NCBI GenBank assembly: GCA_025449735.1
Contig: JANWIV010000001.1
Location: 12,654 to 76,653 of the forward strand
Length of the DNA: 64,000 bases
Reading direction: 5' to 3'
From: Candidatus Microgenomates bacterium
GTDB taxonomy: Bacteria; Patescibacteriota; Microgenomatia; UBA1406; HO2-37-13b
In this document: positions 1-29,700 of the stretch, piece by piece
How positions within the stretch are numbered: the stretch's first letter is position 1
How the letters are laid out: every line of letters starts with the position of its first letter
Made by a program: the position numbers and the translations under genes
Notes under the pieces: model-generated
What the model saw: the letters and a program-made list of their open reading frames with translations, nothing else
Told to the model about the DNA's origin: nothing
The model's database searches: none

Positions 1-686
1 TCTCCATCAAAAGCGATTTTGCCACCTTTAAGATAAATTACTCGGTTGCAAAATTCCTTCACCTGCATCATACTGTGTGAAATATAAATTATGGTGATAT
101 TACGCTCTTTAAATTCATTCATTTTTTGAAAACACTTCTTTTGAAAAGCGCTATCACCAACAGCAAGAATTTCATCAACCAGCAAGATATCAGGATCAGT
201 AAATATCGCAATTGAAAAAGCTAACCTCATATACATTCCGGATGAATAATGCTTAACCGGCATTTGGATAAATTTCTCCTCAAGCTCTGAGAAACTACAA
301 ATATCCTTAAATTTTTTACTAATTTGCTCCTCAGTCATACCCAATATCACTCCATTTAAATAGATATTTTCACGCCCCGTAAGCTCAGGATGAAATCCAG
401 CACCAAGCTCGATTAAAGGCGCTACTTTACCGGTTATTTTTAAGGCTCCTGATGTCGCTTTCGTCACCCCTGCCATCAATTTAAGCATTGTTGACTTTCC
501 AGCGCCATTTCTGCCGATTATTCCGACGGTAGTCCCTTTTTCGACTTCAAAACTAACATCCTGAAGCGCATAGACCTTCTCTCTTGTCTTCTGACCTTTA
601 AATATCGCCTGAACGAGCTCTTTTATTGTCCTTTGATGATGCAGAAAATAAGATTTATTTACAGCATTAAAAATTATCGGTTTCAT
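1..686 (-). CDS. ABC transporter ATP-binding protein, polysaccharide/teichoic-acid export type (TagH/Wzt-like); C-terminus runs off the window
   Basis: Own reverse translation from ATG at 686-684: MKPIIFNAVNKSYFLHHQRTIKELVQAIFKGQKTREKVYALQDVSFEVEKGTTVGIIGRNGAGKSTML... It has Walker A GRNGAGKST, signature YSSGM and Walker B ILLVDE. It is absent from the ORF track because the window edge truncates it. Confidence 0.85.
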   Translation of the reverse strand, partial: MKPIIFNAVNKSYFLHHQRTIKELVQAIFKGQKTREKVYALQDVSFEVEKGTTVGIIGRNGAGKSTMLKLMAGVTKATSGALKITGKVAPLIELGAGFHPELTGRENIYLNGVILGMTEEQISKKFKDICSFSELEEKFIQMPVKHYSSGMYMRLAFSIAIFTDPDILLVDEILAVGDSAFQKKCFQKMNEFKERNITIIYISHSMMQVKEFCNRVIYLKGGKIAFDG

Positions 687-708
687 TAGTTTATTCTAGC
701 ACAGATAG

Positions 709-2902: not shown

Positions 2903-4026
2903 AAATAGGAGTTGATTTATCAATGCTGGTATATGCGGGCAGTGGTGTTGCCACCTACACCCTTAACTTTGCTCAAGAGTTATTGAAGCGTCAGTCAAGC
3001 AATAATTATGTATTTTTTTATTCTTCTCTAAGAAAACCTAAAAACTTCACTTATTTGAATGTCTTAAGAGATTTCGGAGCGAATATTAAAGAGTTACCGC
3101 TACCAACGAGTGCCATCAGGTTCCTCTGGAATAAGCATTCGCTTCTGCCTGTTGAAGCTTTAATTGGCAAAGTCGATTTTTATCATTCCTCTGACTATTT
3201 GAGGCCACCACTATTGCCAGGGACTAAAGGAATAACTACAATTCATGACCTAACTTGGAAGCTTTTTCCACAGTATCATACCGAGGACGTTATTCGCCAT
3301 CATGAACGCAAGCTAGAAAGAACTATCAAGTATCAGGATATAATAATTGTTGATTCTCAAAATACCGAGCACGACCTGCTTAAACTTTATCCAATGATTG
3401 ATGAAAAAAAAGTTCATATCATATATCTTGGCATAGATGATCGCTTTCAGAAAGTTAGTGATACAAAAAAAATTGCCTCAGTACTTTCCAAATACTCAAT
3501 ACCAAATACTAAATACTTGCTCTACGTTGGCGCTATTGAGCCAAGGAAAAATCTACCAGTCGCCATTAATGTGTACAATGAATTATTGAAAGATAAAAAA
3601 TATTCCGACTATCATTTTGTCATTGCTGGTCGAGCCGGTTGGAAAAATGAATCAGTATATCAATTAGTCAAAGAATTGAACCTTGAAGATAGAATCCATT
3701 TTATCGGTTTTGTCGAAGATATTGACCTACCTACTTTATACTCTGGCGCCAGTGTCTTTATTTATTTGAGTTTATATGAGGGATTTGGTCTTCCACCACT
3801 GGAGGCGGCCGCTTGTGGCACACCTAGTCTAATATATAGAAACTCTTCCCTCGCTGAATCTTTTCCAAATGAATACCCTTTTGCTGAGAAAGGAAATGAA
3901 TTGAAGACTCTAATAAATTTAATTGAAAATCCAGAAAGAATCAAACTTTCTTTTGTCACAAAATATTCCTGGAAGAATTACGTAAATAATTTCCTTGCGG
4001 TTCTTAGTCAATTCCAATCTCTTTAA
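2899..4026 (+). CDS. Glycosyltransferase family 4 (GT-B fold)
   Basis: 375 aa. YEGFGLPPLEAAACGTPSLIYRNSSLAE block. ATGA overlap with the upstream GT4. Confidence 0.8.
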   Translation: MKIGVDLSMLVYAGSGVATYTLNFAQELLKRQSSNNYVFFYSSLRKPKNFTYLNVLRDFGANIKELPLPTSAIRFLWNKHSLLPVEALIGKVDFYHSSDYLRPPLLPGTKGITTIHDLTWKLFPQYHTEDVIRHHERKLERTIKYQDIIIVDSQNTEHDLLKLYPMIDEKKVHIIYLGIDDRFQKVSDTKKIASVLSKYSIPNTKYLLYVGAIEPRKNLPVAINVYNELLKDKKYSDYHFVIAGRAGWKNESVYQLVKELNLEDRIHFIGFVEDIDLPTLYSGASVFIYLSLYEGFGLPPLEAAACGTPSLIYRNSSLAESFPNEYPFAEKGNELKTLINLIENPERIKLSFVTKYSWKNYVNNFLAVLSQFQSL

Positions 4027-6217
4027 AGGCGGCACTCAATTTCCTATTGTCTAGTGAAAGACCTATTTCTACTGGGGAATATTGATTCTCAAACTCGAAT
4101 CGTAAATGATGGATAGTTTTTTTATTATATGAAGGTTGGATCTTGTGGCGATAAGTTAAAAACTCCTCCTCCAAATCATCTTCTCCTATTAAAATTTCAT
4201 CCATGTATATTTTGACGTGCTGAGGTTTTTCTAATGTCCGCGCCGTATAAGTAAGCGTAGTAGGTGACGATTTAGAAATAAGCCTAATGGTTGTCACTTT
4301 TGCATTTGCCCAACGACCCTCTGGTTCCGATACATCCCAACCCTCTAAGAGCAACATATCCTCGCAACAATTTGAATTAAAATTAATCCTAGAATAATCT
4401 GTGTTACTAGTTGTAAGGCAATTGTCGCTAATACAAACATTCCCTAAACGGTAAAAGCTGTTTTCCCAAACAATATTTTCTAAATGAATCCTAGCAGGAC
4501 TTGTTAGCATATCTTTGGATTGTAAAATCAAGCTAGTTTCTGTTGGTACATTAAAAAATATTTGATTCGAAGTATAAACTGTACGTAGCTTTGGATATAA
4601 AAAGTATTCCAACCAGATATCGCGCCAATAATTAATTTTGCCACTATAAAAACCATCTAGAAAAATTGGGCCGGATATATTTGTATTTTTGCTTAATTCT
4701 GAAATTGATATTAAATCACGACCAACGATTTTAGATTCCCTAATAAATCGTTTGTTCATTAATACACCGTTATAAATCACAAGTAATAACAGAGAAGTCA
4801 ACAGCAAGAACTTAAATTTTTTTAATTTGTTGAGTATTGAAACAAGGCCAATCGATAAAAAAATTATTAAAATTGGTAGTGAAAAAGTGATTGTCCGGTT
4901 ATAAACAAAGAAGTTTGGAGCAAATATTGTGCTCCAAAAAATAAAAATACCATAAATAATAACAATACCAAAAGTCATTACTTTCATTTTTGAGTTTTTA
5001 ATACCAAAACAAAAAATTATTAAGGTTAAAATGCTCAAAATAATTGATAAAAATAATGATAATGGGGGGTAGTTATGCATGCTATGAAACCCGAAAAATT
5101 CGAATGGGTAAGCAAAAGGAGTTTGTTCACGAAACAAAGCCCATCCAATTGGTTTACCAATATTACTCGCCTGCGCTATATCTAATTTAATCGCATGAAA
5201 AATAGCTGGAACGGAAATAATAAAAGCGGTTGATAATATTTTTAACAAGGATTCAATAAATCTAAAGTAACGTTGGTGCAAAATAAAAGTTACACAAATA
5301 TAAAAAACTAATGGAAAAATTATAAAAATACCACCTTCATGATATGATAAAAATACAGAAGCAATTATTATTCCTATTAATATTTCATTGACACTTTTAT
5401 AAGTTTTATCTGTTGATAATAATTTAAAATGAGCAATTACAAATACGTACAAATAGCTCTGCAGCAGCCAAAAAAAAACTTGACCTGTGAAATTATGGTA
5501 AAGCATATATAACAGATCAGCATTAAACGCTGTCATGAAAGCGATAATCAAAGCACCATAATGACTAGGCCGGTAGAATAAACTAAATAGGATGTACCCT
5601 AGCGGGATAGTCAGAGCAAAAATAATCACTGGGAAAATATAAGCAATTTGATAACCCTGAAGTGAGAGTAGTGATTCAAAAAAAGCAATGACAGCAGGAC
5701 TTCCCCAACGAAATCCGGAAACAATCATATTCATTATTCCAGTCGGATCATCGTTTACTTTTTCTGGTTTAATTAATAAATTATCAGCAATCGACCTCCC
5801 AACTAGATAATCTGGTACAGAAGCATATACCAAGGCATCAGTATTGCCAAGTGATACTGAAGTCAAAAAACGCGCATGTCTAAGCGGGGCAAGATTAATA
5901 AAAATACTAGTCAGAATAACAATAAACAGAAGACCATCGATTAAATAATTGATCTTCAATCTATTATTTTTGAAAAGATAGCTATAAATTGTTGTCAATG
6001 TGAGCAATACAAAAATCACTGGCGTCACATATTTTAAAGGAATACCAACCAGGCTAAGAATTGTTAAGAAAACACTTAAAAAAACAACAAGGGTCGCTGG
6101 CGAGAGCCAAAGGGAAAATTTGCTTAAATTTTTAGGTAAAATTAATGTTGTAATCCCGAATCCAAGGAAAAAAAGACTGAAGTAAAGGGCCCCAGTATAA
6201 AATATAAGTTCAACCAT
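4004..6217 (-). CDS. Polytopic membrane protein, paralog family A, with C-terminal GW..E..RW/DNR.L module (putative GT-C-like glycosyltransferase)
   Basis: 737 aa, mostly hydrophobic helices. Motifs LGNTDALVYASVPDYL and FRWGS are shared with 6220-8019 and 15184-17388. C-terminal soluble tail EGWDVSEPEGRW...DNRKLSAAF. Confidence 0.6.
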   Translation of the reverse strand: MVELIFYTGALYFSLFFLGFGITTLILPKNLSKFSLWLSPATLVVFLSVFLTILSLVGIPLKYVTPVIFVLLTLTTIYSYLFKNNRLKINYLIDGLLFIVILTSIFINLAPLRHARFLTSVSLGNTDALVYASVPDYLVGRSIADNLLIKPEKVNDDPTGIMNMIVSGFRWGSPAVIAFFESLLSLQGYQIAYIFPVIIFALTIPLGYILFSLFYRPSHYGALIIAFMTAFNADLLYMLYHNFTGQVFFWLLQSYLYVFVIAHFKLLSTDKTYKSVNEILIGIIIASVFLSYHEGGIFIIFPLVFYICVTFILHQRYFRFIESLLKILSTAFIISVPAIFHAIKLDIAQASNIGKPIGWALFREQTPFAYPFEFFGFHSMHNYPPLSLFLSIILSILTLIIFCFGIKNSKMKVMTFGIVIIYGIFIFWSTIFAPNFFVYNRTITFSLPILIIFLSIGLVSILNKLKKFKFLLLTSLLLLVIYNGVLMNKRFIRESKIVGRDLISISELSKNTNISGPIFLDGFYSGKINYWRDIWLEYFLYPKLRTVYTSNQIFFNVPTETSLILQSKDMLTSPARIHLENIVWENSFYRLGNVCISDNCLTTSNTDYSRINFNSNCCEDMLLLEGWDVSEPEGRWANAKVTTIRLISKSSPTTLTYTARTLEKPQHVKIYMDEILIGEDDLEEEFLTYRHKIQPSYNKKTIHHLRFEFENQYSPVEIGLSLDNRKLSAAFKEIGID

Positions 6218-6219
6218 TG

Positions 6220-8019
6220 TTACAATTCTGAACTTACTGGAATAGGTTCAATACGACCCAACTGATAAAATTCGTTTTCCCATATGATTTTTTTGTAGTT
6301 AATGACCTTATCGTCGTTTGAAGTCTTATTTTTGGCAGTGAGTACTGGTAATTTAACATTGTATTCTGAAATTAAAGTTACATAATTCGCCTTAGTTATA
6401 ATTTTTTTATGATTCAGAAAATAGTAAGTCCAGACTCGATTCCACAGATCATATTCAGTAAAATAAACGTCTGAGGTGACGAATGGTTTTTTAATTTTGG
6501 TATTTTTATCTAATTGTATAAGGGAAATAAGCGGCCGATCTACGGAGCGATGGTGACTGGCAAATTGAAACATTGTGCGATTAGCCGATCGCAGCGATAA
6601 AAAAATCATTATTCCAAAGACAAAAATTATAATCAATCTGTAATTGAATCTATCAAATAGGCGAGTCATGCCAATTGAGAAAACTGCAGAAAAAAGGAAA
6701 ACTGAATAAGTGATGGTCCGATGGTAAACGAAAAAATTTGGTTTAATAAATTTAAACAAAAATAAAAATCCGATGAAAAAAATCGCATAGCTTAGAATTA
6801 GCAATTTATTTTTTATCCTTAAAAATCCAAGGAAAGCGATGCCTAGGATTACAACGGTAAGTATGACATCAAATAAAATCGGAAGATCGCGATAATAATT
6901 CAGATTGTAAAATCCTAGTGCCTCGGCAGGAAAAGCATGGCGAATCGCTTCCCAACCAATATGCTCCTCAATTGTAGTAACTTTGACCATCCGAATAAAC
7001 CATCTTGCCATTGTGCCAAAAGTAAATGGATTGAAAATAATAGAAAGAATTATAATTTTTACAATTTTGAATAAATTTTCGACATTTTTAGTAATTAATT
7101 GAGTAGCGCCATAAATAAGCATCGGAAAGACTGCCAAAAAATACCCCTCGGGATAAATTGTTGTAATCGAGGATAAAATTAGGCCTAGTGTCAAATCATA
7201 ATGGTTTAAATTATGGGTTTTTAATTTGTCAGATAAATATTGACACAGCAGAACCAAAGTAAGCGCTATTAAACCTCCAAAAATTATCTGCCCAAAAAAA
7301 GCATTGTATAGAATGTAAAGCAGAGTTGAATTAATCCCATATGTCAGAAAGGTAAGAACGGCAATCTTCAGTTTATCCTTTTTATAAATTAGTACCGCCA
7401 ATACATATACCAATGGATAGGTAAGGGCAAAAAAAATACTTATCAATGTCGTAAATATTTCATATGACCTGGTGTTCAGCAGGACCGCAAAATAGCTAAA
7501 GATAATTCCACTACCCCATCGGAAGCTGTAGGTGATCAAATCACTGGCGCTAGCCACGCTAGGAACAAATGGGTCTTGAAAATCACCCCCAAAAACTGAA
7601 TTTTTAATTAAATAGTCCCCAGTCGTCGCATAAGCAACTGGATCAAGATTGCCAAGCGACATTACCGTCGGATAACCAACCCTAAAAATCATTGGCCATA
7701 TATTATAGAGCAGAATAAACGAAGTCATAATTAATACAGACAGTGACACTTTTGAAAATTTCAGCTGTGCTTTATCTCTTAATAAGCAATGTAGGAAAAG
7801 TAGGCTAGAAATTAGAAATATCGGTCTACTAGCCTGTTCCATCGTAAACCCCGCCATGCTCATATAGACGCTGGCCACAACAATTCCTATGGTTCCTAAC
7901 CACGGAGAAATGAAGAAGGTATAAGATTTGAGAGATTTGGGTAATATAATTGAAGATAGACCTAGACCAGATATATAAAGCAATAGGACAAGTTTAATTG
8001 TTAAAATAAGTGTTTCCAT
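6220..8019 (-). CDS. Polytopic membrane protein, paralog family A, tail-less member
   Basis: 599 aa. LGNLDPVAYATTGDYL and FRWGS motifs. It ends right after WENEFYQLG, where its paralogs continue into the C-terminal module. Confidence 0.6.
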   Translation of the reverse strand: METLILTIKLVLLLYISGLGLSSIILPKSLKSYTFFISPWLGTIGIVVASVYMSMAGFTMEQASRPIFLISSLLFLHCLLRDKAQLKFSKVSLSVLIMTSFILLYNIWPMIFRVGYPTVMSLGNLDPVAYATTGDYLIKNSVFGGDFQDPFVPSVASASDLITYSFRWGSGIIFSYFAVLLNTRSYEIFTTLISIFFALTYPLVYVLAVLIYKKDKLKIAVLTFLTYGINSTLLYILYNAFFGQIIFGGLIALTLVLLCQYLSDKLKTHNLNHYDLTLGLILSSITTIYPEGYFLAVFPMLIYGATQLITKNVENLFKIVKIIILSIIFNPFTFGTMARWFIRMVKVTTIEEHIGWEAIRHAFPAEALGFYNLNYYRDLPILFDVILTVVILGIAFLGFLRIKNKLLILSYAIFFIGFLFLFKFIKPNFFVYHRTITYSVFLFSAVFSIGMTRLFDRFNYRLIIIFVFGIMIFLSLRSANRTMFQFASHHRSVDRPLISLIQLDKNTKIKKPFVTSDVYFTEYDLWNRVWTYYFLNHKKIITKANYVTLISEYNVKLPVLTAKNKTSNDDKVINYKKIIWENEFYQLGRIEPIPVSSEL

Positions 8020-8024
8020 TTTTT

Positions 8025-10211
8025 TTACTTTTTAATACTCAGCTTTGAAAAAAATACGGCTAGATTTCGATTATCTTGATTATCTTTATATATGTTCGAC
8101 GGCCTAACATTTTTTTCAAAAATAAATGTAATTCTATTTACGCCTACTTTTAAATTTTGCTGTAAGCTAAAATGATATTTCTTTCTCTCTTTATCAAAAT
8201 TTAAATTATATGTGGGGAGACCATTGATATTGATCGTGGCTTGTTGATTATCAACGATGGTATTGGCTTCAAAATCGAGATTAATTCCAGCCTTGCGATT
8301 GGTCTTAAAAAAAATCGTCGCTACCTTATCAAGAGTCCATCGACCTTCGGGTTCGTAGGGTGCCCATCCGTAACCAAAATAAAACTGTCGCTGACTGCTC
8401 GATAATTCATCTAGGTAAAATTCCTGTCGTTTTATCATCCTATTGTACAGACTATAACCGTTATCATTTATTGACAACTCATATCCAAGCGAAATCAGTA
8501 TGTCGTTTATAGCTTCCGAATATGGCTCTTTTTGCTTTAGCACGATATTTTCCAATCCAAAAAATTCGATTGAATCAAGCATCTTATCTCTATCTAAAGT
8601 CAGATTCGATTGACTACTAGGATCAATCAGCTGAGCTAGATAACCAATAAAAGCGTCATTGCGATAATAGTCAAATACGGCTGGGTTCAATCTACCCGCA
8701 TAGACACTAAACTTTGGTTTTTTGTATATTAATTGTGTTCGTAGTGATGAAACAGCATTAAAATCACCAATGTATTGCAACCCGTCTCTTATGACAAAAG
8801 GGATCTCCATAACTGGTCCCGTCGGAGAACTTTCTAAACGATCGTATATTTTTTGTGGAATTGGTTGGAGCACTTGTCCAAAAGATGCCGTATAAGATTG
8901 GTCGATTAAAAAAATGAAAATTGCCAGAATACAAAGAGTGAAATATGTTAGTCTATCCTTAACTTTCTTATCTGCGAAGTCCTGGGCTAATAAGGCAGTC
9001 ACTATCGTCATAAGAAAGATCGCAGGGACAATAAACCGGGCCGGACTCCTTGCTAGCTGAACGTATGGAATACTATTTAGAATCTTAAAGGGCAATACTA
9101 TAAAAGTTTCATGACCGAAAATATGTAACTTTGGTCCCAGTGTCAGAATCCAAAAGCAGAGGATGACAAATAACATTGGATTGATTTTTCTTTTTATTTT
9201 AAGACTGATCTTTTTATTGAAGAAAATAACGTATAGTACCCCTAACAAGATTATTATTCCAGGATAAACTAAATTTTCAAAAGCCGGTCTTAAAGCCAAA
9301 ATTGATGACATATACTCAAGAAATTTGCCAAATACTAATCCCGTAGTTGCTGGAGTGAAAATTCCAATTAAGTCTGATGAAAATTGAATACTGTCTTTGG
9401 AAAAATGAAAGTCGATACCCTGACTTAACAAGAGGCTTCGGTAAACCTTAATAATCCATGGGTAAAGCAATATTAAGCCAAGAAATAGAATAATGAGTAA
9501 GTATTGGTATCGGCTCTTGATGAAACTTGTCAATACATTTTTGTTTGAGATTAAATAATAGCTTAGAAAAAAAGACACCATCAGTGCGAGCATCACTGTG
9601 AAATACAGATTCGTAAGAACTAATACTGCCACACTAATCGTTAGTCCAAAACTATTGATTACAATGAACTTTTTAGTTTTACTCCTGAGAACACTAATAA
9701 AAAAGAATGCTATCGCTGGAAATAAATACAAAGCTGTGTAGGTAGGATGTCCTAACCTGGCGACAACGAAAGGAGAGTAGCCATATACCAAACTCAAGAC
9801 ATAAGAGATGCCGCGCCTTATCTCAAATTGTCTCAACAATAGATACATAAAGGCACAACTGGCTACGATACCAAACATTACTATTATAGTAAAGGCATCA
9901 TGGACTGAAAAGAAAGGGCGCAGAAAAAGGAAATAAACTCCATTAATGGGTGCCACATCCTCAAGGGCAAAATTCCAACCAAATGGAAAAAGCAAGGGAG
10001 CTTCGTTAAACGGGTTACGAAGTGAAAGAATATTAAGTCTTACCGTTTCGGCCACATACTCGTACACTGGCCACTCTCCAAAAACCACTAATGTATTTGG
10101 TACTTTGAAAATTGAATAGTGCCAAATATTGAAATTAAAAATGTAGTTTAATAGTGTGTAACTGAGAAGTATTAAGAAAGGGATAGAAACTTTTTTTTTC
10201 AAAAAATTCAT
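8025..10211 (-). CDS. Polytopic membrane protein, paralog family B, with C-terminal GW..E..RW/DNR.L module (putative GT-C-like glycosyltransferase)
   Basis: 728 aa. NPFNEAPLLFPFGWNFALEDVAPINGVYFLFLRPF near the N-terminus, MEIPFVIRDGLQYIGD late in the protein, and tail GYGWAPYEPEGRW...DNRNLAVFF. Confidence 0.6.
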   Translation of the reverse strand: MNFLKKKVSIPFLILLSYTLLNYIFNFNIWHYSIFKVPNTLVVFGEWPVYEYVAETVRLNILSLRNPFNEAPLLFPFGWNFALEDVAPINGVYFLFLRPFFSVHDAFTIIVMFGIVASCAFMYLLLRQFEIRRGISYVLSLVYGYSPFVVARLGHPTYTALYLFPAIAFFFISVLRSKTKKFIVINSFGLTISVAVLVLTNLYFTVMLALMVSFFLSYYLISNKNVLTSFIKSRYQYLLIILFLGLILLYPWIIKVYRSLLLSQGIDFHFSKDSIQFSSDLIGIFTPATTGLVFGKFLEYMSSILALRPAFENLVYPGIIILLGVLYVIFFNKKISLKIKRKINPMLFVILCFWILTLGPKLHIFGHETFIVLPFKILNSIPYVQLARSPARFIVPAIFLMTIVTALLAQDFADKKVKDRLTYFTLCILAIFIFLIDQSYTASFGQVLQPIPQKIYDRLESSPTGPVMEIPFVIRDGLQYIGDFNAVSSLRTQLIYKKPKFSVYAGRLNPAVFDYYRNDAFIGYLAQLIDPSSQSNLTLDRDKMLDSIEFFGLENIVLKQKEPYSEAINDILISLGYELSINDNGYSLYNRMIKRQEFYLDELSSSQRQFYFGYGWAPYEPEGRWTLDKVATIFFKTNRKAGINLDFEANTIVDNQQATININGLPTYNLNFDKERKKYHFSLQQNLKVGVNRITFIFEKNVRPSNIYKDNQDNRNLAVFFSKLSIKK

Positions 10212-10214
10212 ATG

Positions 10215-10931
10215 TCAATTATAGCGCTTCATTTCAAAAAAAAGACGCAAATCACCAACAATTTTTTCACGGATTAAATCAAGGATATTATAATTCGAAG
10301 TTCCCCAAATTCTTGGATAATGAGATACTGGCACCTCAGCGAATGTAGCTCCGGATATTTGAAGTTTTTTTACGAGCTCCGGCAAAATTGATGAATCAGT
10401 ACTATCTAATTTTATTTTTGCAAGCCTCGACTTTCTAATTAGCCTGAAATCGCAATCGACATCGCGGACTGGAAGCTGAAGAATTGTTTTGCTAAATTTA
10501 GCATACAGATTACCTAAGAGAACTCGAATAAAAGCATCTCTTCTGGATTTTTTATATCCATTAACGACATCGACATTAGTCTTCTGCTGTTTTTCTACTA
10601 GGTGCTCCAAATCAGTTTCTAAATGGTACTGAGCGTCGCCATCAGTATAAAAAATCCATTTCTTATTGGCATTTGCAAAACCGTGTTTTATGACCGCATA
10701 ACCTTCCTGATTGCGAGATCTATCAACTATCTTTAGATTTGGATAAATAGACTTCATCTCTTTGATTCTTTGAGTAGTTTTATCCTGGGACCTGCCGCCG
10801 ATAATAGCAATTACCTGCAGATTATCTGTCATTCGTCGTCCGATGCTATATGCCAAGTGAATTTGTCGAGATACAGTTCCTTCATCGTTTAAAAAGGGAA
10901 AAAAAATAGATAAGCTTTCAAGTTTTTTCAT
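10215..10931 (-). CDS. Glycosyltransferase family 2, DPM1/polyprenyl-phosphate sugar synthase-like, soluble form
   Basis: 238 aa. LSIFFPFLNDEG start and YTDGDAQY DxD-type motif. No C-terminal TM helices. Confidence 0.65.
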   Translation of the reverse strand: MKKLESLSIFFPFLNDEGTVSRQIHLAYSIGRRMTDNLQVIAIIGGRSQDKTTQRIKEMKSIYPNLKIVDRSRNQEGYAVIKHGFANANKKWIFYTDGDAQYHLETDLEHLVEKQQKTNVDVVNGYKKSRRDAFIRVLLGNLYAKFSKTILQLPVRDVDCDFRLIRKSRLAKIKLDSTDSSILPELVKKLQISGATFAEVPVSHYPRIWGTSNYNILDLIREKIVGDLRLFFEMKRYN

Positions 10932-12039
10932 AGAAGTTTTTTATTTTTGAGACAATATATTGTACCTCTTTATCGGTCAAATACTCATGAAAAGGCAGGC
11001 TCAGAATATGTTTCGATAAGTATTCCGAATTGGGGAAATTTTTATTTTTTATATTACCAAAAGCCTTAACCTTATTAACTGGATATGGATAGTGGATCAT
11101 GGTCTCAATTCCATTTTTCAATAAGTATTTTTTTAATTGACTGCGTTTTCTCACCGTTAGCGTCATGAGGTGCAATATTGGTACAGACGACTCAATCGAT
11201 TCGAGTAGTCTTGCATTATTGCTCAAGTTTGAATTAAGAATTGCCTTATTATAAATGTAATACAACTGTTTTTTAACCCGCATTACCTGCTTAAAATCTT
11301 TTAGGTATAAATTCAAAATCTCTGCCTGAATTTCTGGTAGGCGACTATGACCGGCAATAAATTGACTACGATAACGAGCCTTCTCACCATATTGTCTGGC
11401 CTTTAAAATATAAGAGTAATATTTTTTATTACCAGTGATAATAGCGCCACCATCGCCAAGCGCCCCCAAATTCTTTGTCGGGTAAAAAGAAAAACAACCC
11501 ATATCTCCAAATGTCCCAAGGTGTTTGCCTTTAAACTTGCTACCGAAAGATTGAGCGCAATCTTCGATTAAAACTAGATTATATTTTTTAGCTATTTTTA
11601 GAATTGACTCAATATCTCCAGCCAAACCATATAAGTGAACCATTATAATCACTTTAGTTTTTTTAGTTATTTTCTTTTCCACCTCAAAAGGATCAAGCTG
11701 GCCATTAATATCAACGTCGACGGGGACTGGTTTTCCAGAAGACAGAAAAACTGGGAAAGCAGTTGGATAGGCGTTGGCAGGAAATATGATTTCGTCATCA
11801 CTCTTTAAATCAAGAGCATTTAGTGCCATAAGAAGTGCATCATGTCCTGAGGCGACCGCAATTGCTGAACTGGCAAACATTGTTGATAATTTTCTTTCGA
11901 GACTTATTACCTTATTGCCGTTTAAAAAAACTCCTCGATCAATTATCGAACTTACGCTGCTTAATATTTCTTTCCTATATTTTTTTGCTTTAAGTCGAGT
12001 TGAAGAAAAAGGAATCGCTGGCAGAGTTTTTTGAGTCAT
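10918..12039 (-). CDS. DegT/DnrJ/EryC1/StrS-family sugar aminotransferase
   Basis: GHDALLMALNAL and FSFYPTKNLGALGDGGAIIT (PLP-lysine region). I moved the start to ATG 12039 (MTQKTLPAIPF), which removes the 46-nt overlap of the longer track ORF. Confidence 0.8.
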   Translation of the reverse strand: MTQKTLPAIPFSSTRLKAKKYRKEILSSVSSIIDRGVFLNGNKVISLERKLSTMFASSAIAVASGHDALLMALNALDLKSDDEIIFPANAYPTAFPVFLSSGKPVPVDVDINGQLDPFEVEKKITKKTKVIIMVHLYGLAGDIESILKIAKKYNLVLIEDCAQSFGSKFKGKHLGTFGDMGCFSFYPTKNLGALGDGGAIITGNKKYYSYILKARQYGEKARYRSQFIAGHSRLPEIQAEILNLYLKDFKQVMRVKKQLYYIYNKAILNSNLSNNARLLESIESSVPILHLMTLTVRKRSQLKKYLLKNGIETMIHYPYPVNKVKAFGNIKNKNFPNSEYLSKHILSLPFHEYLTDKEVQYIVSKIKNFYEKT

Positions 12040-12044
12040 ACTAT

Positions 12045-12593
12045 TTAATCTCGTTTTGGTTTCCAAAAATCGCGACCCAAAGAATCCCAAGGAATTCTTT
12101 TTTCGTCGGCTTTTTTTAAATTAAATTGTTGATTGACAAAGACATAAAGCTCAACTGGTTTGCTCGTAAAAATTGCCGAACCATGTGCTACCCCTTTTGG
12201 AATATAAAGCATATGAGCACTGCCGCCACCAAGGACCACTCTCATCGTCTTGCCGACTGAAGGCGACTTCGTTCTTACATCCCACAAACCCGCCAATAGG
12301 TGGTCAAGCGGACTAACATACCAAATTTCATCTTGGCGATAATGAAGATGCCAAGCTTTAATAGAGCCGGGGATAAGTGTTGTTCGATTAATTTGGGCCA
12401 GTTTAAAACCCTTTATATTTTCAAGATTGCCGTTTTTTATTCGTAGTATTTCGGAGAAATCACCCTCTTCTGCAGGAATGTTTTTCAAATCGATTATTCT
12501 TACTCCTTCAATATTTTCTTGTTCACTATAATCAGCCGGGTAAATTAATTTAGAAGCATCAAGAACAATATCTTTGGCAGTAAGGTTTTTCAT
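12045..12593 (-). CDS. RmlC-like cupin (NDP-4-keto-6-deoxyhexose 3,5-epimerase family)
   Basis: 182 aa. AWHLHYRQDEIWYV, LYIPKGVAHG and RIPWDS correspond to the RmlC core motifs. Confidence 0.65.
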   Translation of the reverse strand: MKNLTAKDIVLDASKLIYPADYSEQENIEGVRIIDLKNIPAEEGDFSEILRIKNGNLENIKGFKLAQINRTTLIPGSIKAWHLHYRQDEIWYVSPLDHLLAGLWDVRTKSPSVGKTMRVVLGGGSAHMLYIPKGVAHGSAIFTSKPVELYVFVNQQFNLKKADEKRIPWDSLGRDFWKPKRD

Positions 12594-12627: not shown

Positions 12628-14415
12628 TCAGTTATTATTGTTAGCATCAACTCTTTGCCATAATGAGTAGCCATTATCCCTCATTATAAGTGTAAAGTTG
12701 AGATGTTTAAGAATGGACTCTGAATCCAAACTATACTTTTGGTAATCTCTTAAAATAGCATAGCTTATATTTTTAAATTCGAGACTTTCTTCCGCTTTGT
12801 CAAAATCAATTTCGTTTAATATTTTTGCTCGGTCCGTTGTTTTTACGTCTATTAATCTGCCAAGTGGACCAAATAAAGCATCGTTTTGAATAGTTGAGAA
12901 AGCAACCTCTGGAACTCTCCCGGCATATAAACTAAATATCGAATGTCCATGCAAGCTCATTACCCGAGTGGACCAAACGCTATTAGCAAAACCAAAATTT
13001 TTAATTCCGTCGCGAACAGTAAACGGTATTTCGAGGAGCGGTCCTTCCTGATGATGCAGTAATAAAGAGTATATTTTGGTGGGCAAAACAATTGTTTCAA
13101 CGGGAGCCGGTTTTACTGATTGATCAATAAGTACAGCAGCTAACAGCAATAAAGCTATAGTAATTTTTTTTAACCGGGTAGTTTTTTTTGTTAGATATGA
13201 TAGTACATACGCTAAAATAATTGAAAGTAGGAAAATTACCGGCGCAATAAATCTACCCGGAGCTCTTGCCATTTGAACAAATGGCAATCGGTATAAAAAT
13301 TGATATGGAAGATCAATAAACGTGGTTTTGCCAATAAATCTTAGGAATGGGCCTAATGTAAAAATGTAAAGAAATATTGAACTAGCAAAAATAGCCTTTA
13401 AAAAAAGGGGCAACTTATTTCTAATCTTAAGATACAAAATGCTTGTGCTAATTAATGCAACTCCGAGGTATGAATAAATTTCAAACCGGGGACGAAAACT
13501 CAATACATCTGACAACGGCAAGATGATGGAAGCATAAAAAGGATTGCGGACTGGCCAAAGTATACTAATCAGATCGGCTGAAAGCAAAACACTGTCAGTA
13601 ACTGGCCGAGCTTCCGCATAACCGTTAAAGTAAAGTGATTCGATAACTTTTACAACCCAAGGTAATAATAACAAGCAAGAGAACCAGACAGCCCAAACAA
13701 TATGTCTATAATTTCCTTTAACGATAGTTATAATTTTCTTTCTTTCGAAGACAAGTCCTATTGTCGTAACTAGTCCAATCATCAACCCGATCATAATCGT
13801 AAAATATAAATTTGTTAGTGGGCAAAGGGCCAGATTTACTCCAAGCAAACTCGAATACAAAAATTTTATCGACGGTCTCTTTTCTTTTGAAAGTAATATA
13901 AAAAATAAGGCCGGTAATGAAAAAAGATAAAGCGCTACATAAGTGGGATGCCCCCAGATTCGATACGAAACAAATGGAGTGAAACCGTAAACCGCTCCTG
14001 TGATAAATGACACTAATCGATCGTGATCAAGTACACGAGCCAACAAATACATACTAAAACTGGATAAAATAACACTCAGTATTACAATTAGCATAAATGC
14101 TTGATGTATTGAAAGAAACGGTCGCAATAATAAAAAGTAAAAACCATTAATCGGAGCGACATCGTCTGGGGCAAAATTCCATCCATAAGGGTTCAGTACT
14201 TCAGGTATTTCGGAGAAAGGATTTTTTAGAGAAATAATATTTTGATATACAGTCTCAGCAACAAATTCATAGACATGACTTTCCCCTTGAGCCGTTAGTA
14301 TGTCAGCTGGATCTTGATAAATAACCTGTTGCCAAATTTGACCGTAGAAAATAAAACTAATAAGTAAATATCCAAGGGTAACAATTAATATTGGGAACCA
14401 ATTAATTTTTTTCAT
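12628..14415 (-). CDS. Polytopic membrane protein, paralog family B, tail-less member
   Basis: NPFSEIPEVLNPYGWNFAPDDVAPINGFYFLLLRPF and LLEIPFTVRDGIKNFG. It ends after DNGYSLWQR, where paralogs continue into the C-terminal module. The track start at 14421 is TTG, so I prefer ATG 14415 (MKKINWFP). Confidence 0.6.
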   Translation of the reverse strand: MKKINWFPILIVTLGYLLISFIFYGQIWQQVIYQDPADILTAQGESHVYEFVAETVYQNIISLKNPFSEIPEVLNPYGWNFAPDDVAPINGFYFLLLRPFLSIHQAFMLIVILSVILSSFSMYLLARVLDHDRLVSFITGAVYGFTPFVSYRIWGHPTYVALYLFSLPALFFILLSKEKRPSIKFLYSSLLGVNLALCPLTNLYFTIMIGLMIGLVTTIGLVFERKKIITIVKGNYRHIVWAVWFSCLLLLPWVVKVIESLYFNGYAEARPVTDSVLLSADLISILWPVRNPFYASIILPLSDVLSFRPRFEIYSYLGVALISTSILYLKIRNKLPLFLKAIFASSIFLYIFTLGPFLRFIGKTTFIDLPYQFLYRLPFVQMARAPGRFIAPVIFLLSIILAYVLSYLTKKTTRLKKITIALLLLAAVLIDQSVKPAPVETIVLPTKIYSLLLHHQEGPLLEIPFTVRDGIKNFGFANSVWSTRVMSLHGHSIFSLYAGRVPEVAFSTIQNDALFGPLGRLIDVKTTDRAKILNEIDFDKAEESLEFKNISYAILRDYQKYSLDSESILKHLNFTLIMRDNGYSLWQRVDANNNN

Positions 14416-14426
14416 AGACAATAAGC

Positions 14427-15183: not shown

Positions 15184-17388
15184 TTATTCCAGTCTCATCT
15201 TTCTCACATTTGCTGATAAAGCTCGATTGTCAAAACCTTGCCCATACTCAGAGGGCTTGTATGATGAGGAAAATTCAAAGGTAATGCTGTGGATGCCGGG
15301 TAGTACCTTAATAGGAATCCGGAATTCCTGCCAATTTTCTGTTAATTTAATTGTCGCCATCTTTTGATTATCAACCTTCACTGTCATTGCTTGAGGGGTT
15401 TGGAAAGTTATCGCTTCGATTATAAGACTTCTTGTGATATGTTTATTTATGAGCCGAACGCTAGCCAGCTTATCAACGATCCAACGGTGATCACCCTCAT
15501 TCACACCCCAACCATCAACTAATAGAGAATCGACATATTGGCTCTCAGCAAAGTCGATTTGGGATAAATCCTCAACGTTATTAAGAAGACACTTGTCACT
15601 GATACATAGAGAACCTAATTTATAGTAATTATTCTCCCAAACTACCTTATTAAAAAGTAGGTTGCTAGGAATAATATACTTTACTACTTTTGAAATCAAA
15701 ACAAGATCATCATCCTTAATTTTATTATTACTCTGTGCATATTCGAGACTAGTGATGAAATTGACCTTATCGCCTAAGAAGTACTCCGCCCAAAGCTCTT
15801 TCCAAATTGGCAAATCGGGGTTAAATATTTGTTCTGAATAAATAATTGAGTCTTCAGTGAGTTTTGGCATGTCAGACAGAATAGTCATCCAGCGATCAAC
15901 TGCTAAATTTTCACGCCAGTAGCGCTTCATCAGCAATCCATTATTGATGAAACTTATCCAAACAATTACCACCAAAATATAAGGAATTAAATGTTTTTTT
16001 GACTGTAATAAACTTACTAAGCCAATCATAAGTAAGGTTATGAGAATTGGTGCCCCATAAGAAACCGCTCGATCATAAAACCAGAAATTGGGCCGCACCA
16101 AGCTTAGGAGCAGGATGAAAAAACCATAGGTAGCAACAAAACTACTCATAAGAATATTATTGTTAGACTTTTTGGCACCATACAATATCATTCCAATTAC
16201 TCCCAGGCTTAAAATTATGGAAATAATTATTGGTAGTGATGGCAAACTATGGATGCTATATAAGCCTGTCATCTCAAATGGACTGATAAAGGAGCTACCT
16301 GATTGACGAAACGCCTGCCAACCTACCTCCGCGTTAAAGTCACCGGTTCGATAAAATATCGCAAAACGTATTGAATGAATAATCGCTGGCCAAGCCAGTA
16401 AGAAAGTTAAAAAAAGAGATTTAGAATAGGCTACGGTCCACACTAAACTTTTTTGCTTTGAGAAAATATGAAATAAGGCAATAATCCCTATTGGGATTAA
16501 TATAAATACTGCCGCTTCATGATATGAAAAAAATATCACTGAAAGGACTACTGAAATTAAAAAGTCATGACGATTAAATATAAGGCTTACTTTTTCCTGC
16601 TTTTTAAGGATCTTCTCATAACTGATAAGCAGAATAGTAACCAGGAGTGACAACCCGAGGAAAATAATTTGTCCGATAAAGTTGTGATAAAGATAATAGA
16701 TAATATTAACATTAGTTCCTACTAAAATTGCTGTTACTATTGCGACGAAGTTATTCTTTTCTCGATTTAATAAATTAAACAGAATATAAATCAGCGGCAT
16801 CGCCGCTGCAAAAAGCACCGTCTGAATTATTGTCAGGAGTTGATAACCAGCAAGACCTAACAACTGTTGAAAAAATGCCATCAAGACTGATGGGCCAACA
16901 CGCCACCCAAAAGAAAATAAAGTATGGACTTCAAAGTTAGTTTGCTCCTCAAAGGCTTGGCGCACCGAATGAGTCAAAAGATAATCAGGGACGGCGGCAA
17001 ATGCCTTAGCATCATTTCCTCCTAGTGAAAGTGTGGTTAAGAATCGTTGCTGTAATAACATTGGCAGCAGATTAAGCAAAACTAATACTAAAGCAAGGGC
17101 GAAAATAATCTTGGTAGACAAATCGACTTTCGGCAATCCAAACTTTACAATTACGTAGATTGAGCTCAAAATCATGGTTGTTGTCAAGATGATTACAATC
17201 AACTTCGTACTTAAACCGAGACTACCTAAAATAACCATCGAAAAAATGACAGCAATAACTGTTACCCAGGGCGAGATCGGTAATGAATACGGTTGTAATT
17301 TTTTCGGTAATAAGAGTCGACTAATACCGTAACCTAAGAAATAAAATACGAAAAATAGAATCACTGGATAAATGATTGCAGATTCCAT
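15184..17388 (-). CDS. Polytopic membrane protein, paralog family A, with C-terminal module
   Basis: 734 aa. LGGNDAKAFAAVPDYL and FGWRVG motifs. Tail DGWGVNEGDHRW...DNRALSANV. Confidence 0.6.
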   Translation of the reverse strand: MESAIIYPVILFFVFYFLGYGISRLLLPKKLQPYSLPISPWVTVIAVIFSMVILGSLGLSTKLIVIILTTTMILSSIYVIVKFGLPKVDLSTKIIFALALVLVLLNLLPMLLQQRFLTTLSLGGNDAKAFAAVPDYLLTHSVRQAFEEQTNFEVHTLFSFGWRVGPSVLMAFFQQLLGLAGYQLLTIIQTVLFAAAMPLIYILFNLLNREKNNFVAIVTAILVGTNVNIIYYLYHNFIGQIIFLGLSLLVTILLISYEKILKKQEKVSLIFNRHDFLISVVLSVIFFSYHEAAVFILIPIGIIALFHIFSKQKSLVWTVAYSKSLFLTFLLAWPAIIHSIRFAIFYRTGDFNAEVGWQAFRQSGSSFISPFEMTGLYSIHSLPSLPIIISIILSLGVIGMILYGAKKSNNNILMSSFVATYGFFILLLSLVRPNFWFYDRAVSYGAPILITLLMIGLVSLLQSKKHLIPYILVVIVWISFINNGLLMKRYWRENLAVDRWMTILSDMPKLTEDSIIYSEQIFNPDLPIWKELWAEYFLGDKVNFITSLEYAQSNNKIKDDDLVLISKVVKYIIPSNLLFNKVVWENNYYKLGSLCISDKCLLNNVEDLSQIDFAESQYVDSLLVDGWGVNEGDHRWIVDKLASVRLINKHITRSLIIEAITFQTPQAMTVKVDNQKMATIKLTENWQEFRIPIKVLPGIHSITFEFSSSYKPSEYGQGFDNRALSANVRKMRLE

Positions 17389-21913: not shown

Positions 21914-21921
21914 AGAATGTC

Positions 21922-21935
21922 CTATTATATAATAG
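21922..21935. promoter_or_regulatory. Perfect 14-bp palindrome CTATTATATAATAG giving TATAAT on both strands (back-to-back divergent -10 boxes)
   Basis: It lies in the 31-bp gap between ATG 21913 (minus strand) and ATG 21945 (plus strand). Distances from the -10 boxes to the ATGs are 10 and 11 nt. Confidence 0.5.
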
Positions 21936-21944
21936 CCTTTGAAT

Positions 21945-29649: not shown

Positions 29650-29700
29650 ATAGGCGTTTTGTGATAATATACAGGTATTCTACAGTATATAAATGTGAAA

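What the first reader, a model, noticed from the sequence alone, without database searches (positions are those of the whole stretch)
4004..4345. A shared C-terminal module of about 105-116 aa (G-W..E..RW ... DNR-x-L) on two otherwise different membrane-protein families, with one tail-less member in each family
Five of the seven large proteins end in a hydrophilic module with the same pattern:
- A1 EGWDVSEPEGRWANAKVTTIRL...DNRKLSAAF (4004-4345)
- A3 DGWGVNEGDHRWIVDKLASVRL...DNRALSANV (about 15184-15510)
- B1 GYGWAPYEPEGRWTLDKVATIFF...DNRNLAVFF (about 8025-8375)
- B4 APERGFRWGLGKSSTVFI...DNRDLAMQF (about 19634-19980)
- B3, a diverged copy, GMGWQEKEGQFRLAEKKASVMM (about 17391-17710)

Alternating hydrophobic residues suggest a beta-sandwich, which could be a carbohydrate- or acceptor-binding domain. 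Each family also has exactly one member that stops just before the module. A2 ends at WENEFYQLG-RIEPIPVSSEL, and B2 ends at DNGYSLWQRVDANNNN.

The same module fused to two different TM scaffolds indicates domain shuffling. It also suggests a division of labour between tailed and tail-less enzymes.
Basis: seen in the sequence. Interest (0 to 1): 0.65.

Follow-up and report, generated by a model that had tools for sequence, protein, structure and literature searches.

The report
Shared sugar-binding-like tail on membrane glycosyltransferases

Summary
Five minus-strand ORFs (A1, A3, B1, B3, B4) end in one homologous module of about 122-128 aa. Tail-to-tail scores lie 8-30 SD above shuffles, and an A-tail versus B-tail profile comparison gives E 1e-36. 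The two transmembrane bodies show no detectable sequence relationship (hhalign probability 2.4%). A2 and B2 stop cleanly at the domain boundary and no relic lies downstream.

The module is predicted (pLDDT 82) to be an all-beta jelly roll. Its closest solved folds are the BcsB carbohydrate-binding domains and CBM6/35/36. It is a distant relative of Pfam DUF7024. It occurs in 1,322 protein clusters, singly or in tandem, on at least six scaffolds: family A, family B, PMT_2 and GT22 GT-C enzymes, LtaS-like sulfatases, hexapeptide acyltransferases and lipoproteins.

The family A body models confidently (pLDDT 87) as a GT-C-like fold (STT3, AglB, EmbB, AftA). In Patescibacteria (Microgenomates) genomes, A and B genes form interleaved arrays that usually include a conserved tail-less A2-type gene. 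The window's tail-less B2 is an independent loss.

Best reading: an accessory acceptor-glycan-binding domain, as in EmbC, AftD and GT136 ORF12. Binding itself is untested.

The parts
4007..4381 (-). A1 tail module (aa 613-737), the given finding
   Evidence: HMM envelope. AF2 model is an all-beta jelly roll, pLDDT 82. Foldseek matches BcsB-CBD and CBM6.
4382..6217 (-). A1 body, family A: polytopic membrane protein with a GT-C-like fold plus a membrane-proximal soluble domain
   Evidence: AF2 pLDDT 87.3, pTM 0.86. Foldseek matches STT3, AglB, EmbB, DPY19 and AftA. No Pfam hit in 37 family members.
6220..8019 (-). A2, tail-less family A member (599 aa), ending at the body/tail boundary
   Evidence: A-body HMM positions 2-588 are covered, with no tail. 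It keeps every invariant column of the family. The A2 subfamily has bootstrap 199/200.
8028..8414 (-). B1 tail module (aa 600-728)
   Evidence: HMM hit at E 6e-54. Weak Pfam DUF7024 hit of 16.8 bits, E 3e-4 for the tail alone.
8415..10211 (-). B1 body, family B (DUF6311/DUF7657-like polytopic membrane protein, putative GT-C)
   Evidence: Precomputed PF19830 on many relatives. Weak DUF7657, DUF6541 and PMT hits. Invariant D85 lies in the loop after TM1.
12628..14421 (-). B2, tail-less family B member (597 aa)
   Evidence: B-body HMM positions 7-607 are covered, with no tail. It groups with tailed P0168 at bootstrap 200/200, which indicates an independent loss.
15187..15552 (-). A3 tail module (aa 613-734)
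   Evidence: HMM hit at E 2e-48.
15553..17388 (-). A3 body, family A
   Evidence: BLASTP A1-A3 1e-111 over the full length.
17394..17750 (-). B3 tail module, degenerate: RW is changed to RL, and a ~10-residue deletion removes P...D-x-R-x-L
   Evidence: HMM hit at E 9e-40. Alignment with orthologues that keep the motif.
17751..19631 (-). B3 body, family B
   Evidence: BLASTP B1-B3 4e-89.
19637..20020 (-). B4 tail module (last 128 aa)
   Evidence: HMM hit at E 2e-52.
20021..21958 (-). B4 body, family B
   Evidence: BLASTP B1-B4 3e-95.
10215..10931 (-). Context: small GT2. Its best, sub-threshold matches are polyprenyl-phosphate glycosyltransferases (PgfS, ArnC, AglJ), so it is a candidate maker of the lipid-linked sugar donor.
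   Evidence: Pfam Glycos_transf_2 and NCBIfam.
10918..12593 (-). Context: DegT-type sugar aminotransferase and an RmlC-like cupin (nucleotide amino-/deoxy-sugar synthesis), lying between B1 and B2
1..700 (-). Context: partial TagH/Wzt-like ABC ATPase for glycopolymer export, cut by the window edge
   Evidence: Translation. NCBIfam TagH match of 222 bits. The syntenic locus L001 has ABC2_membrane plus ABC_tran next to the same GT2/GT4 genes.

Best explanation
The tail is a mobile accessory domain of about 125 residues with a beta-jelly-roll fold of the carbohydrate-binding-module type. It is a distant relative of Pfam DUF7024.

In this window it is fused to the C-terminus of two sequence-unrelated families of polytopic membrane enzymes. 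Family A models as a GT-C glycosyltransferase. Family B is probably one too.

These enzymes sit in a glycopolymer cluster that also encodes a TagH/Wzt-like ABC exporter, GT2/GT4 polymer glycosyltransferases, nucleotide-amino-sugar enzymes and small GT2s of the polyprenyl-phosphate-sugar-synthase type.

Proposed mechanism:
- The GT2s load sugars onto polyprenyl phosphate.
- After flipping, the A and B enzymes transfer those sugars onto an envelope glycopolymer at the outer face of the membrane.
- The tail binds the acceptor polymer and holds it near the active site. This raises efficiency or specificity without being needed for chemistry.

Because the tail is accessory, it is evolutionarily labile: lineages carry 0, 1 or 2 copies on A/B enzymes and up to 4-5 on other carriers. 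Tail-less enzymes (the conserved A2 subfamily, and B2 here) remain intact. They presumably act on acceptors that need no polymer grip, such as a lipid-linked primer or a short acceptor.

Shown: the homology, the fold class, the modular distribution, the loss pattern and the conserved arrays. Inferred: export of the tail in A/B, glycan binding, the donor type and the role of the tail-less members.
For: - Homology and chance.
- Fold: the tail model has pLDDT 82 with 10 beta strands. Foldseek top hits are BcsB CBDs (E 9e-5, TMq 0.58), CBM6, CBM35, CBM36, CBM4 and the CE2 jelly roll. Sub-threshold PDB sequence hits are enriched for CBMs.
- Link to DUF7024: B1's tail scores 16.8 bits, and 6 of 50 B tails give weak hits. 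Copy 3 of P0103, which our tail HMM finds at E 8e-17, scores 46.6 bits against a cutoff of 24.4.
- Modularity: 1,322 clusters at E<=1e-3, with 1-5 tandem copies. Of 43 non-A/B carriers, 15 have Sulfatase, 5 PMT_2, 1 Glyco_transf_22 and 3 Hexapep.
- Export: lipoprotein signal peptides occur on soluble multi-module proteins. In A1, short loops assigned inside carry 10 K+R and short loops assigned outside carry 0, which places residues 495-737 outside. A nearly invariant Cys pair (C595/C600) lies in the A linker.
- GT-C body: A1 model pLDDT 87.3; best matches are STT3 6s7t (1.4e-4), AglB, EmbB, DPY19 and AftA. D127 is invariant in a long loop.
- Context.
- Accessory and labile: tail-less members keep all family-invariant residues. 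Trees and bootstraps show at least 2 changes of state in A and at least 3 in B. B3's tail is eroding.
- Recurrence: interleaved A/B arrays with one tail-less A appear in L001-L004, L007, L009, L010, L013, L015, L017 and L019.
- Experimental precedent: the CBM of GT136 ORF12 binds the unmodified O-antigen backbone and is dispensable for catalysis. The CBMs of EmbC and AftD bind the acceptor (PMC11127046; PMC3044687).
Against: - No binding data exist and no ligand-binding residues were identified.
- Fold matches are moderate (TM 0.42-0.58, 6-16% identity), and jelly rolls also serve non-lectin roles.
- The window tails do not reach Pfam's DUF7024 threshold.
- The family B fold was not modelled, and its GT-C assignment rests on weak or sub-threshold Pfam hits.
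- The A1 GT-C match is also modest (TMq 0.31-0.39).
- The module occurs on hexapeptide acyltransferases that have no signal peptide or TM segment. It is therefore not exclusively extracytoplasmic, and any single 'periplasmic acceptor' story is incomplete.
- No flippase gene was identified in the window.
- The trees are neighbour-joining only.
Confidence: 0.6

Rival explanations
1. The tail is a protein-protein assembly domain. It links A and B enzymes, which are always encoded side by side, into one multi-enzyme complex, much as the jelly-roll domains of BcsB build the periplasmic crown. It does not bind sugar.
For: The top fold matches are BcsB domains in oligomeric crowns. A and B genes are interleaved in nearly every related locus. 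Both families carry the same module.
Against: The matched BcsB domains are themselves carbohydrate-binding domains. The module also occurs in 2-5 tandem copies on lipoproteins, on LtaS-like enzymes and on soluble acyltransferases in organisms without A/B arrays. Tails group by their own family rather than co-varying across A and B. The conserved tail-less members would be left out of such a complex.
Confidence: 0.15
2. The tail is a structural or regulatory cap with no ligand of its own. It might act as a spacer or ruler that sets distance from the membrane, or as a lid over the active site. It would then be a conserved fold used passively.
For: The conserved motif residues (G-W, E, R-W, D-x-R-x-L) lie on the first and last strands and could form a structural clasp rather than a binding site. 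In GT136 ORF12 the CBM is dispensable.
Against: Promiscuous fusion to many catalytic classes that share only a glycopolymer substrate. Tandem arrays on lipoproteins with no catalytic domain. CBM-type fold.
Confidence: 0.15
3. The tail-less genes A2 and B2 are truncated pseudogenes or assembly artefacts, and the 'one tail-less per family' pattern is accidental.
For: B2's tail-less state is lineage-specific, since its close relatives P0168-P0170 are tailed. The neighbouring B3 tail is eroding.
Against: Both genes end exactly at the domain boundary, and no relic is found in any frame. Only 2 nt separate the A2 stop from the A1 start, and 34 nt separate B2 from the next gene. Both keep all family-invariant residues. 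Tail-less A2-type genes of 599-626 aa recur in more than 10 independent assemblies and form a clade with 199/200 bootstrap. B2 has a tail-less sister, P0171, seen in 8 member sequences on 6 contigs.
Confidence: 0.05

Closest known systems
GT136 ORF12 of Citrobacter youngae O1 (GT-C glycosyltransferase with a C-terminal CBM; three-component periplasmic glycosylation), PMC11127046
   Same: A polytopic GT-C body is followed by a C-terminal beta-rich carbohydrate-binding module. The cluster combines an ABC-transporter-dependent polymer with a polyprenyl-phosphate-sugar synthase. The CBM binds the unmodified polymer and is dispensable for catalysis, which matches the natural tail-less paralogues here.
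   Different: There is no detectable sequence similarity to families A or B or to this tail. That system has one GT-C per system, not an array of 5-7 paralogues from two families. The donor there is a pentofuranose made from PRPP. No MATE flippase was identified in this window.
Mycobacterial arabinosyltransferases EmbA/B/C, AftA and AftD (GT-C; Emb and AftD carry CBM-type C-terminal domains), PMC3044687 and PDB 7bvc, 8if8
   Same: They are the structural matches of the A1 model. Several GT-C paralogues act in series on one envelope polymer. Lectin-like C-terminal modules bind the acceptor. Some members have CBMs and some do not.
   Different: The Foldseek match is modest (TMq 0.31-0.35, 9-10% identity) and there is no sequence-level hit. 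The Emb C-terminal domains are larger, with two subdomains. The organisms here are Patescibacteria with an unknown envelope polymer.
Pfam PF22895 DUF7024 (domain of unknown function)
   Same: Same motif series: G-W..E...W, Q.V.V..NG, I.F, P...D.R.LG. P0103 copy 3 passes the Pfam threshold and is also found by the tail HMM. B-family tails give weak hits over nearly the whole profile, positions 30-144 of 145.
   Different: The window tails are below threshold (best 16.8 bits against 24.4), and the A tails give no hit at all. DUF7024 has no assigned function, and no paper in the searched library mentions it.
BcsB carbohydrate-binding domains and the CBM6/CBM35/CBM36 jelly rolls
   Same: These are the best fold matches of the isolated tail (E 9e-5 to 3e-3, TMq 0.42-0.58).
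   Different: Sequence identity is 6-16%. No PDB sequence hit is significant. Calcium or ligand site residues could not be checked.

Membership tests
Pfam DUF7024 (PF22895) | Score at or above the gathering threshold (24.4 bits) of the family HMM | tested here: not met
   B1 scores 16.8 bits (E 0.0065 for the whole protein, 3e-4 for the tail alone). A1, A3, B3 and B4 give no hit. Six of 50 B-family relatives give weak hits. A transitive link exists through P0103 copy 3, which scores 46.6 bits.
CBM-type / galactose-binding-like beta-jelly roll | All-beta jelly-roll fold superposable on solved CBMs | tested here: met
   The AF2 model has pLDDT 82 and 10 strands. Foldseek gives probability 1.00, E 9e-5 to 3e-3 and TMq 0.42-0.58 to BcsB CBDs, CBM6, CBM35 and CBM36. 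The similarity is moderate.
CBM-type / galactose-binding-like beta-jelly roll | Demonstrated carbohydrate binding, or a conserved ligand or Ca2+ site | not testable with these tools
GT-C fold glycosyltransferases (family A body) | Polytopic membrane domain superposable on solved GT-C enzymes | tested here: met
   The A1 model has pLDDT 87.3 and pTM 0.86. The top whole-chain matches are all GT-C enzymes: STT3 (1.4e-4), AglB, EmbB, DPY19 and AftA, with TMq 0.30-0.39. This is modest but consistent.
GT-C fold glycosyltransferases (family A body) | Conserved acidic residue in a long extracytoplasmic loop near the N-terminus | tested here: inconclusive
   D127 is invariant in 37 sequences and lies in the 109-193 loop. 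That loop is assigned outside by the positive-inside count. However, it follows four helices rather than one, and its catalytic role is unproven.
GT-C fold glycosyltransferases (family A body) | Uses a polyprenyl-phosphate-linked sugar donor | not testable with these tools
   There is only contextual support. Two small GT2 genes have ArnC, PgfS and AglJ as their best, sub-threshold matches.
GT-C fold glycosyltransferases (family B body) | GT-C fold, or significant match to a GT-C family profile | tested here: inconclusive
   Relatives carry precomputed PF19830 (DUF6311). Direct scans give only weak DUF7657 (9 of 50, best 2.6e-5), DUF6541 and PMT hits. D85 is invariant in the loop after TM1.
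Emb/Aft arabinosyltransferases (GT53/GT85 etc.) and GT136 | Sequence-level membership | tested here: not met
   Profile searches of families A and B against all PDB sequences, which include the Emb, AftA and AftD entries, find nothing significant. No Pfam GT-C family is hit by family A.

The most novel reading that the evidence does not exclude
The module acts as a polymer address tag. In Microgenomates the same glycan-recognition domain is attached to every enzyme class that works on one envelope heteroglycan: cytoplasmic hexapeptide acyltransferases, two unrelated GT-C families and LtaS-like transferases. The interleaved A/B arrays then form an extracytoplasmic assembly line comparable to mycobacterial arabinan synthesis. 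In that line, the conserved tail-less A2 subfamily is the priming enzyme that acts before there is any polymer to hold. This would make family A a new, uncatalogued GT-C family and would give a first handle on the unknown cell-envelope glycans of these uncultured bacteria.
Probability: 0.2. Interest if true: 0.6.

Novelty: new member of a known kind. Interest (0 to 1): 0.38.

Why it matters
Patescibacteria (CPR) are almost entirely uncultured, and their envelope chemistry is essentially unknown. This cluster type packs five to seven large membrane enzymes into one array. Family A has no Pfam or NCBIfam model at all. Recognising the array as GT-C-like transferases with a shared, detachable CBM-like domain turns seven hypothetical proteins into a testable pathway model. 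It also gives the DUF7024-like domain a working hypothesis: acceptor-glycan binding across many enzyme classes. Natural tailed and tail-less paralogues offer a ready-made comparison for asking what CBMs contribute to GT-C enzymes. The design principle itself is already established for EmbC, AftD and GT136, so the advance is in annotation and evolution rather than in concept.

Tried and rejected
- The word-indexed search with the 5-tail profile found nothing. The exhaustive representative search was needed.
- tblastn of A1 against plasmids found no match.
- PDB sequence searches with the tail profile, a broader 34-tail profile and the family A and B profiles gave nothing significant.
- tRNA and Rfam scans of the window found nothing.
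- Literature searches for DUF7024, DUF6311, DUF7657, PF19830, PF22895 and for 'Patescibacteria + GT-C' returned no papers.
- hhalign of the A and B body profiles against the membrane bodies of 17 other carriers, including those with PMT_2, gave no link. Only three distant B members (P0073, P0143, P0026) matched.
- The idea that the tail-less genes have a decayed tail downstream was rejected. No six-frame hit was found, and the gaps are 2 nt and 34 nt.
- Recent exchange of tails between A and B within this genome was rejected, because tails group by family.
- The apparent tail-less L014 3084-5060 was discarded because that ORF is cut by the contig end.
Full report
**1. The observation**

Seven large ORFs lie on the minus strand between 4004 and 21958.
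- Family A: A1 4004-6217 (737 aa), A2 6220-8019 (599 aa) and A3 15184-17388 (734 aa).
- Family B: B1 8025-10211 (728 aa), B2 12628-14421 (597 aa), B3 17391-19631 (746 aa) and B4 19634-21958 (774 aa).

Local alignment scores among the last 125 residues of A1, A3, B1, B4 and B3 are 67-185. Shuffled controls average 26-30, so z is 8-30, and none of 300 shuffles reached the observed score. The C-termini of A2 and B2 behave like shuffles.

BLASTP between A and B proteins aligns only the tails. I built family alignments of 37 A sequences and 50 B sequences. With these, hhalign gives A-tail vs B-tail probability 99.9%, E 1e-36. A-body vs B-body gives probability 2.4%.

A tail HMM run with filters off against all six-frame ORFs of the window finds exactly five copies and nothing else better than E 0.37. 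The tail-less genes therefore have no relic downstream. There is also no room for one:
- The A2 stop is 2 nt from the A1 start.
- B2 is 34 nt from the next gene.

The module envelope is 122-128 aa. For A1 this is nt 4007-4381.

**2. What the module is**

AlphaFold2 on the five-tail alignment gives an all-beta model with 10 strands, mean pLDDT 82.1 and pTM 0.78.

Foldseek against the PDB returns the carbohydrate-binding domains of BcsB first (E 9e-5, TMq 0.58). CBM6, CBM35, CBM36, CBM4 and the jelly-roll domain of CE2 esterases follow. The same matches reappear for the tail portion of the full-length A1 model. Sequence searches of the PDB find nothing significant, but the sub-threshold list is again dominated by CBMs and BcsB.

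In Pfam, the only signal is DUF7024 (PF22895).
- B1 scores 16.8 bits, below the 24.4-bit threshold.
- Six of 50 B relatives give weak hits.
- The third module of P0103 scores 46.6 bits. The tail HMM finds this sulfatase-domain protein at E 8e-17.

The aligned motifs are the same in all of these: G-W..E...(R)W, Q.V.V..NG, I.F, P...D-x-R-x-L. The window tails are thus a divergent branch of, or a sister to, DUF7024, which has no known function. No paper in the searched library names it.

**3. Distribution of the module**

An exhaustive profile search of 1.84 billion representative proteins finds 1,322 clusters at E<=1e-3 and 253 at E<=1e-10.

Among the best 150 there are three groups:
- many 710-770 aa proteins with an A-like or B-like body and one C-terminal copy;
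- B-like proteins with two copies;
- 73 proteins with other architectures and 1-5 tandem copies.

Of 43 such proteins with at least 200 non-module residues, the Pfam hits are as follows:

| Pfam domain | Proteins |
|---|---|
| Sulfatase (LtaS / phosphotransferase type) | 15 |
| PMT_2 | 5 |
| Glyco_transf_22 | 1 |
| Hexapeptide-repeat acyltransferase domain | 3 |
| DUF7024 itself (threshold passed) | 2 |

Soluble multi-module proteins start with lipoprotein signal peptides. Examples are P0012 LLLLLPGC, P0041 IIFAGC and P0120 LGLSAC.

The hexapeptide acyltransferase fusions (P0123, P0128, P0129, P0141) have no signal peptide or TM segment. The module is therefore used on both sides of the membrane.

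The feature shared by all carriers is that they are enzymes or lipoproteins of envelope glycopolymer metabolism. This is the main argument that the module recognises a glycan.

**4. The bodies**

Family A has no Pfam or NCBIfam hit in any of 37 members. The full-length A1 model is confident, with pLDDT 87.3 and pTM 0.86. All of its best whole-chain PDB matches are GT-C glycosyltransferases:
- human STT3 (6s7t, E 1.4e-4, TMq 0.38)
- AglB
- EmbB
- the C-mannosyltransferase DPY19
- AftA

D127 is invariant and lies in a long loop, and a second conserved loop (G358 W359 R363) follows.

I took the model helices as TM segments and treated helix 172-191 as part of the long loop. With that assignment, the short loops placed inside carry 10 K+R and the short loops placed outside carry none. 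The last 243 residues then lie outside. A nearly invariant Cys pair (C595, C600) in the linker fits an extracytoplasmic location. This topology is an inference.

Relatives of family B carry precomputed PF19830 (DUF6311) hits. Direct scans give only weak DUF7657, DUF6541 and PMT matches. B has an invariant D85 in the loop after the first TM helix.

**5. Genomic context**

The seven genes are embedded in a glycan cluster:
- a partial TagH/Wzt-like ABC ATPase at the left edge;
- a GT2 and two GT4 genes;
- a small GT2 (10215-10931) and a second one (32508-33212), whose best though sub-threshold NCBIfam matches are polyprenyl-phosphate glycosyltransferases (PgfS, ArnC, AglJ);
- a DegT aminotransferase and an RmlC-like cupin;
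- several methyltransferases;
- a HAD phosphatase and a nucleotidyltransferase.

This is the gene content expected for an ABC-transporter-dependent polymer that is then glycosylated outside the membrane by GT-C enzymes using lipid-linked monosaccharides. No flippase gene was identified.

**6. Relatives and the tail-less pattern**

Named relatives are Candidatus Roizmanbacteria, Woesebacteria, Gottesmanbacteria, Daviesbacteria and 'Patescibacteria group' MAGs. Distant A-like proteins (23-29% identity) without this tail occur in cyanobacteria, Carboxydocellales, Binataceae and Nitrospinales.

In 24 fetched loci, A and B genes are interleaved in arrays in almost every Patescibacteria locus. Most arrays contain one tail-less A of 599-626 aa, and several contain one tail-less B of 615-634 aa (L002, L003, L009, L010, L013).

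Neighbour-joining trees of the bodies with 200 bootstraps show the following.
- An A2 subfamily of 14 sequences is supported at 199/200. Twelve are tail-less and two (P0082, P0107) are tailed. These two are the closest relatives of the window's A2 (198/200).
- A separate tail-less A (P0227) lies inside the A1 clade (188/200).
- A core tail-less B lineage (170/200) lies within the B4-like group.
- The window's B2, with tail-less P0171, groups at 200/200 with tailed P0168 inside the B1-like group. B2 is therefore an independent loss, and this genome lacks the usual tail-less B lineage.
- Two-tail B forms arise at least three times.

Tail-less members retain every family-invariant residue. The window's B3 tail has lost about 10 residues, including the D-x-R-x-L motif that its orthologues keep.

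The tail is therefore a dispensable, repeatedly gained and lost accessory, and a tail-less A is a stable component of the system.

Tails group by their own family. The nearest neighbour of an A tail is an A tail in 58 of 61 cases and never a B tail. The sharing between A and B is therefore ancient.

**7. Comparison with what is known**

GT-C enzymes with C-terminal CBMs are established.
- The EmbC C-terminal domain is a lectin-like CBM (PMC3044687).
- AftD and EmbA/B also carry CBMs.
- The GT136 founder ORF12 of Citrobacter youngae has a C-terminal CBM. It binds the unmodified O-antigen backbone, and its removal does not abolish activity in vivo or in vitro (PMC11127046).

ORF12 is the closest functional analogue, and it explains why tail-less paralogues can be functional.

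The present case differs in four ways:
- Sequence: there is no similarity to those families.
- The module family: it is DUF7024-like.
- The organisation: two unrelated body families share one module in arrays of 5-7 genes.
- Host: uncultured Patescibacteria.

**8. Verdict**

- The functional reading (acceptor-glycan binding, division of labour) is the best-supported hypothesis but is untested.
- This is a new member of a known kind, with moderate interest.

Noticed in passing
window 17394-17750 (B3 tail): Compared with its orthologues (P0021, L001 6770-9022, L007 6728-8977, P0181, P0187), the window's B3 tail lacks about 10 residues that include the P...D-x-R-x-L motif. It also has RL in place of RW. 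It looks like a tail in the process of erosion.
   Followed up: partly
L009 1175-2224; L012 4816-5868; proteins P0123, P0128, P0129, P0141: Proteins of about 350 aa consist of a hexapeptide-repeat acyltransferase domain plus one tail module. They have no signal peptide or TM segment and are encoded next to A/B arrays. The module is therefore also used on a presumably cytoplasmic enzyme.
   Followed up: partly
L001 8992-9990; L004 4181-5164; L007 8967-9923: Half-size A-like ORFs of about 320 aa, matching A-body HMM positions 3-334, recur inside the arrays of several related genomes. None is present in the window.
   Followed up: no
window 26793-28772 (-): This is an eighth large polytopic membrane ORF (659 aa). 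It has no Pfam or NCBIfam hit, is neither A nor B, and has no tail. It sits next to a methyltransferase gene.
   Followed up: partly
window 1-30000 vs 30000-64000: GC content is 32-37% across the glycan cluster and 38-46% in the right half of the window.
   Followed up: no
proteins P0082, P0107 (A2-subfamily bodies with tails): Their tails are 40-47% identical to A3-type tails, although their bodies belong to the deeply separate and mostly tail-less A2 subfamily. The tail may have been re-acquired by recombination with a neighbouring paralogue.
   Followed up: partly
L003, L006, L016, L017, L019: MAG records titled 'uncultured Gammaproteobacteria bacterium' carry the same A/B arrays as Patescibacteria MAGs. 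L002 and L003 are near-identical in layout. The titles look like placeholder taxonomy.
   Followed up: no
window 29695-30501 and 30666-31571 (+): Transketolase is encoded as two separate ORFs, one for the N-terminal TPP-binding part and one for the pyrimidine-binding plus C-terminal part.
   Followed up: no
window 21939-22886, 22883-23821, 25031-26113 (+): Three ORFs of 312-360 aa beside the array have no Pfam or NCBIfam hit. Counterparts of the first two (328 and 312 aa) occupy the same position in the syntenic locus L001.
   Followed up: no
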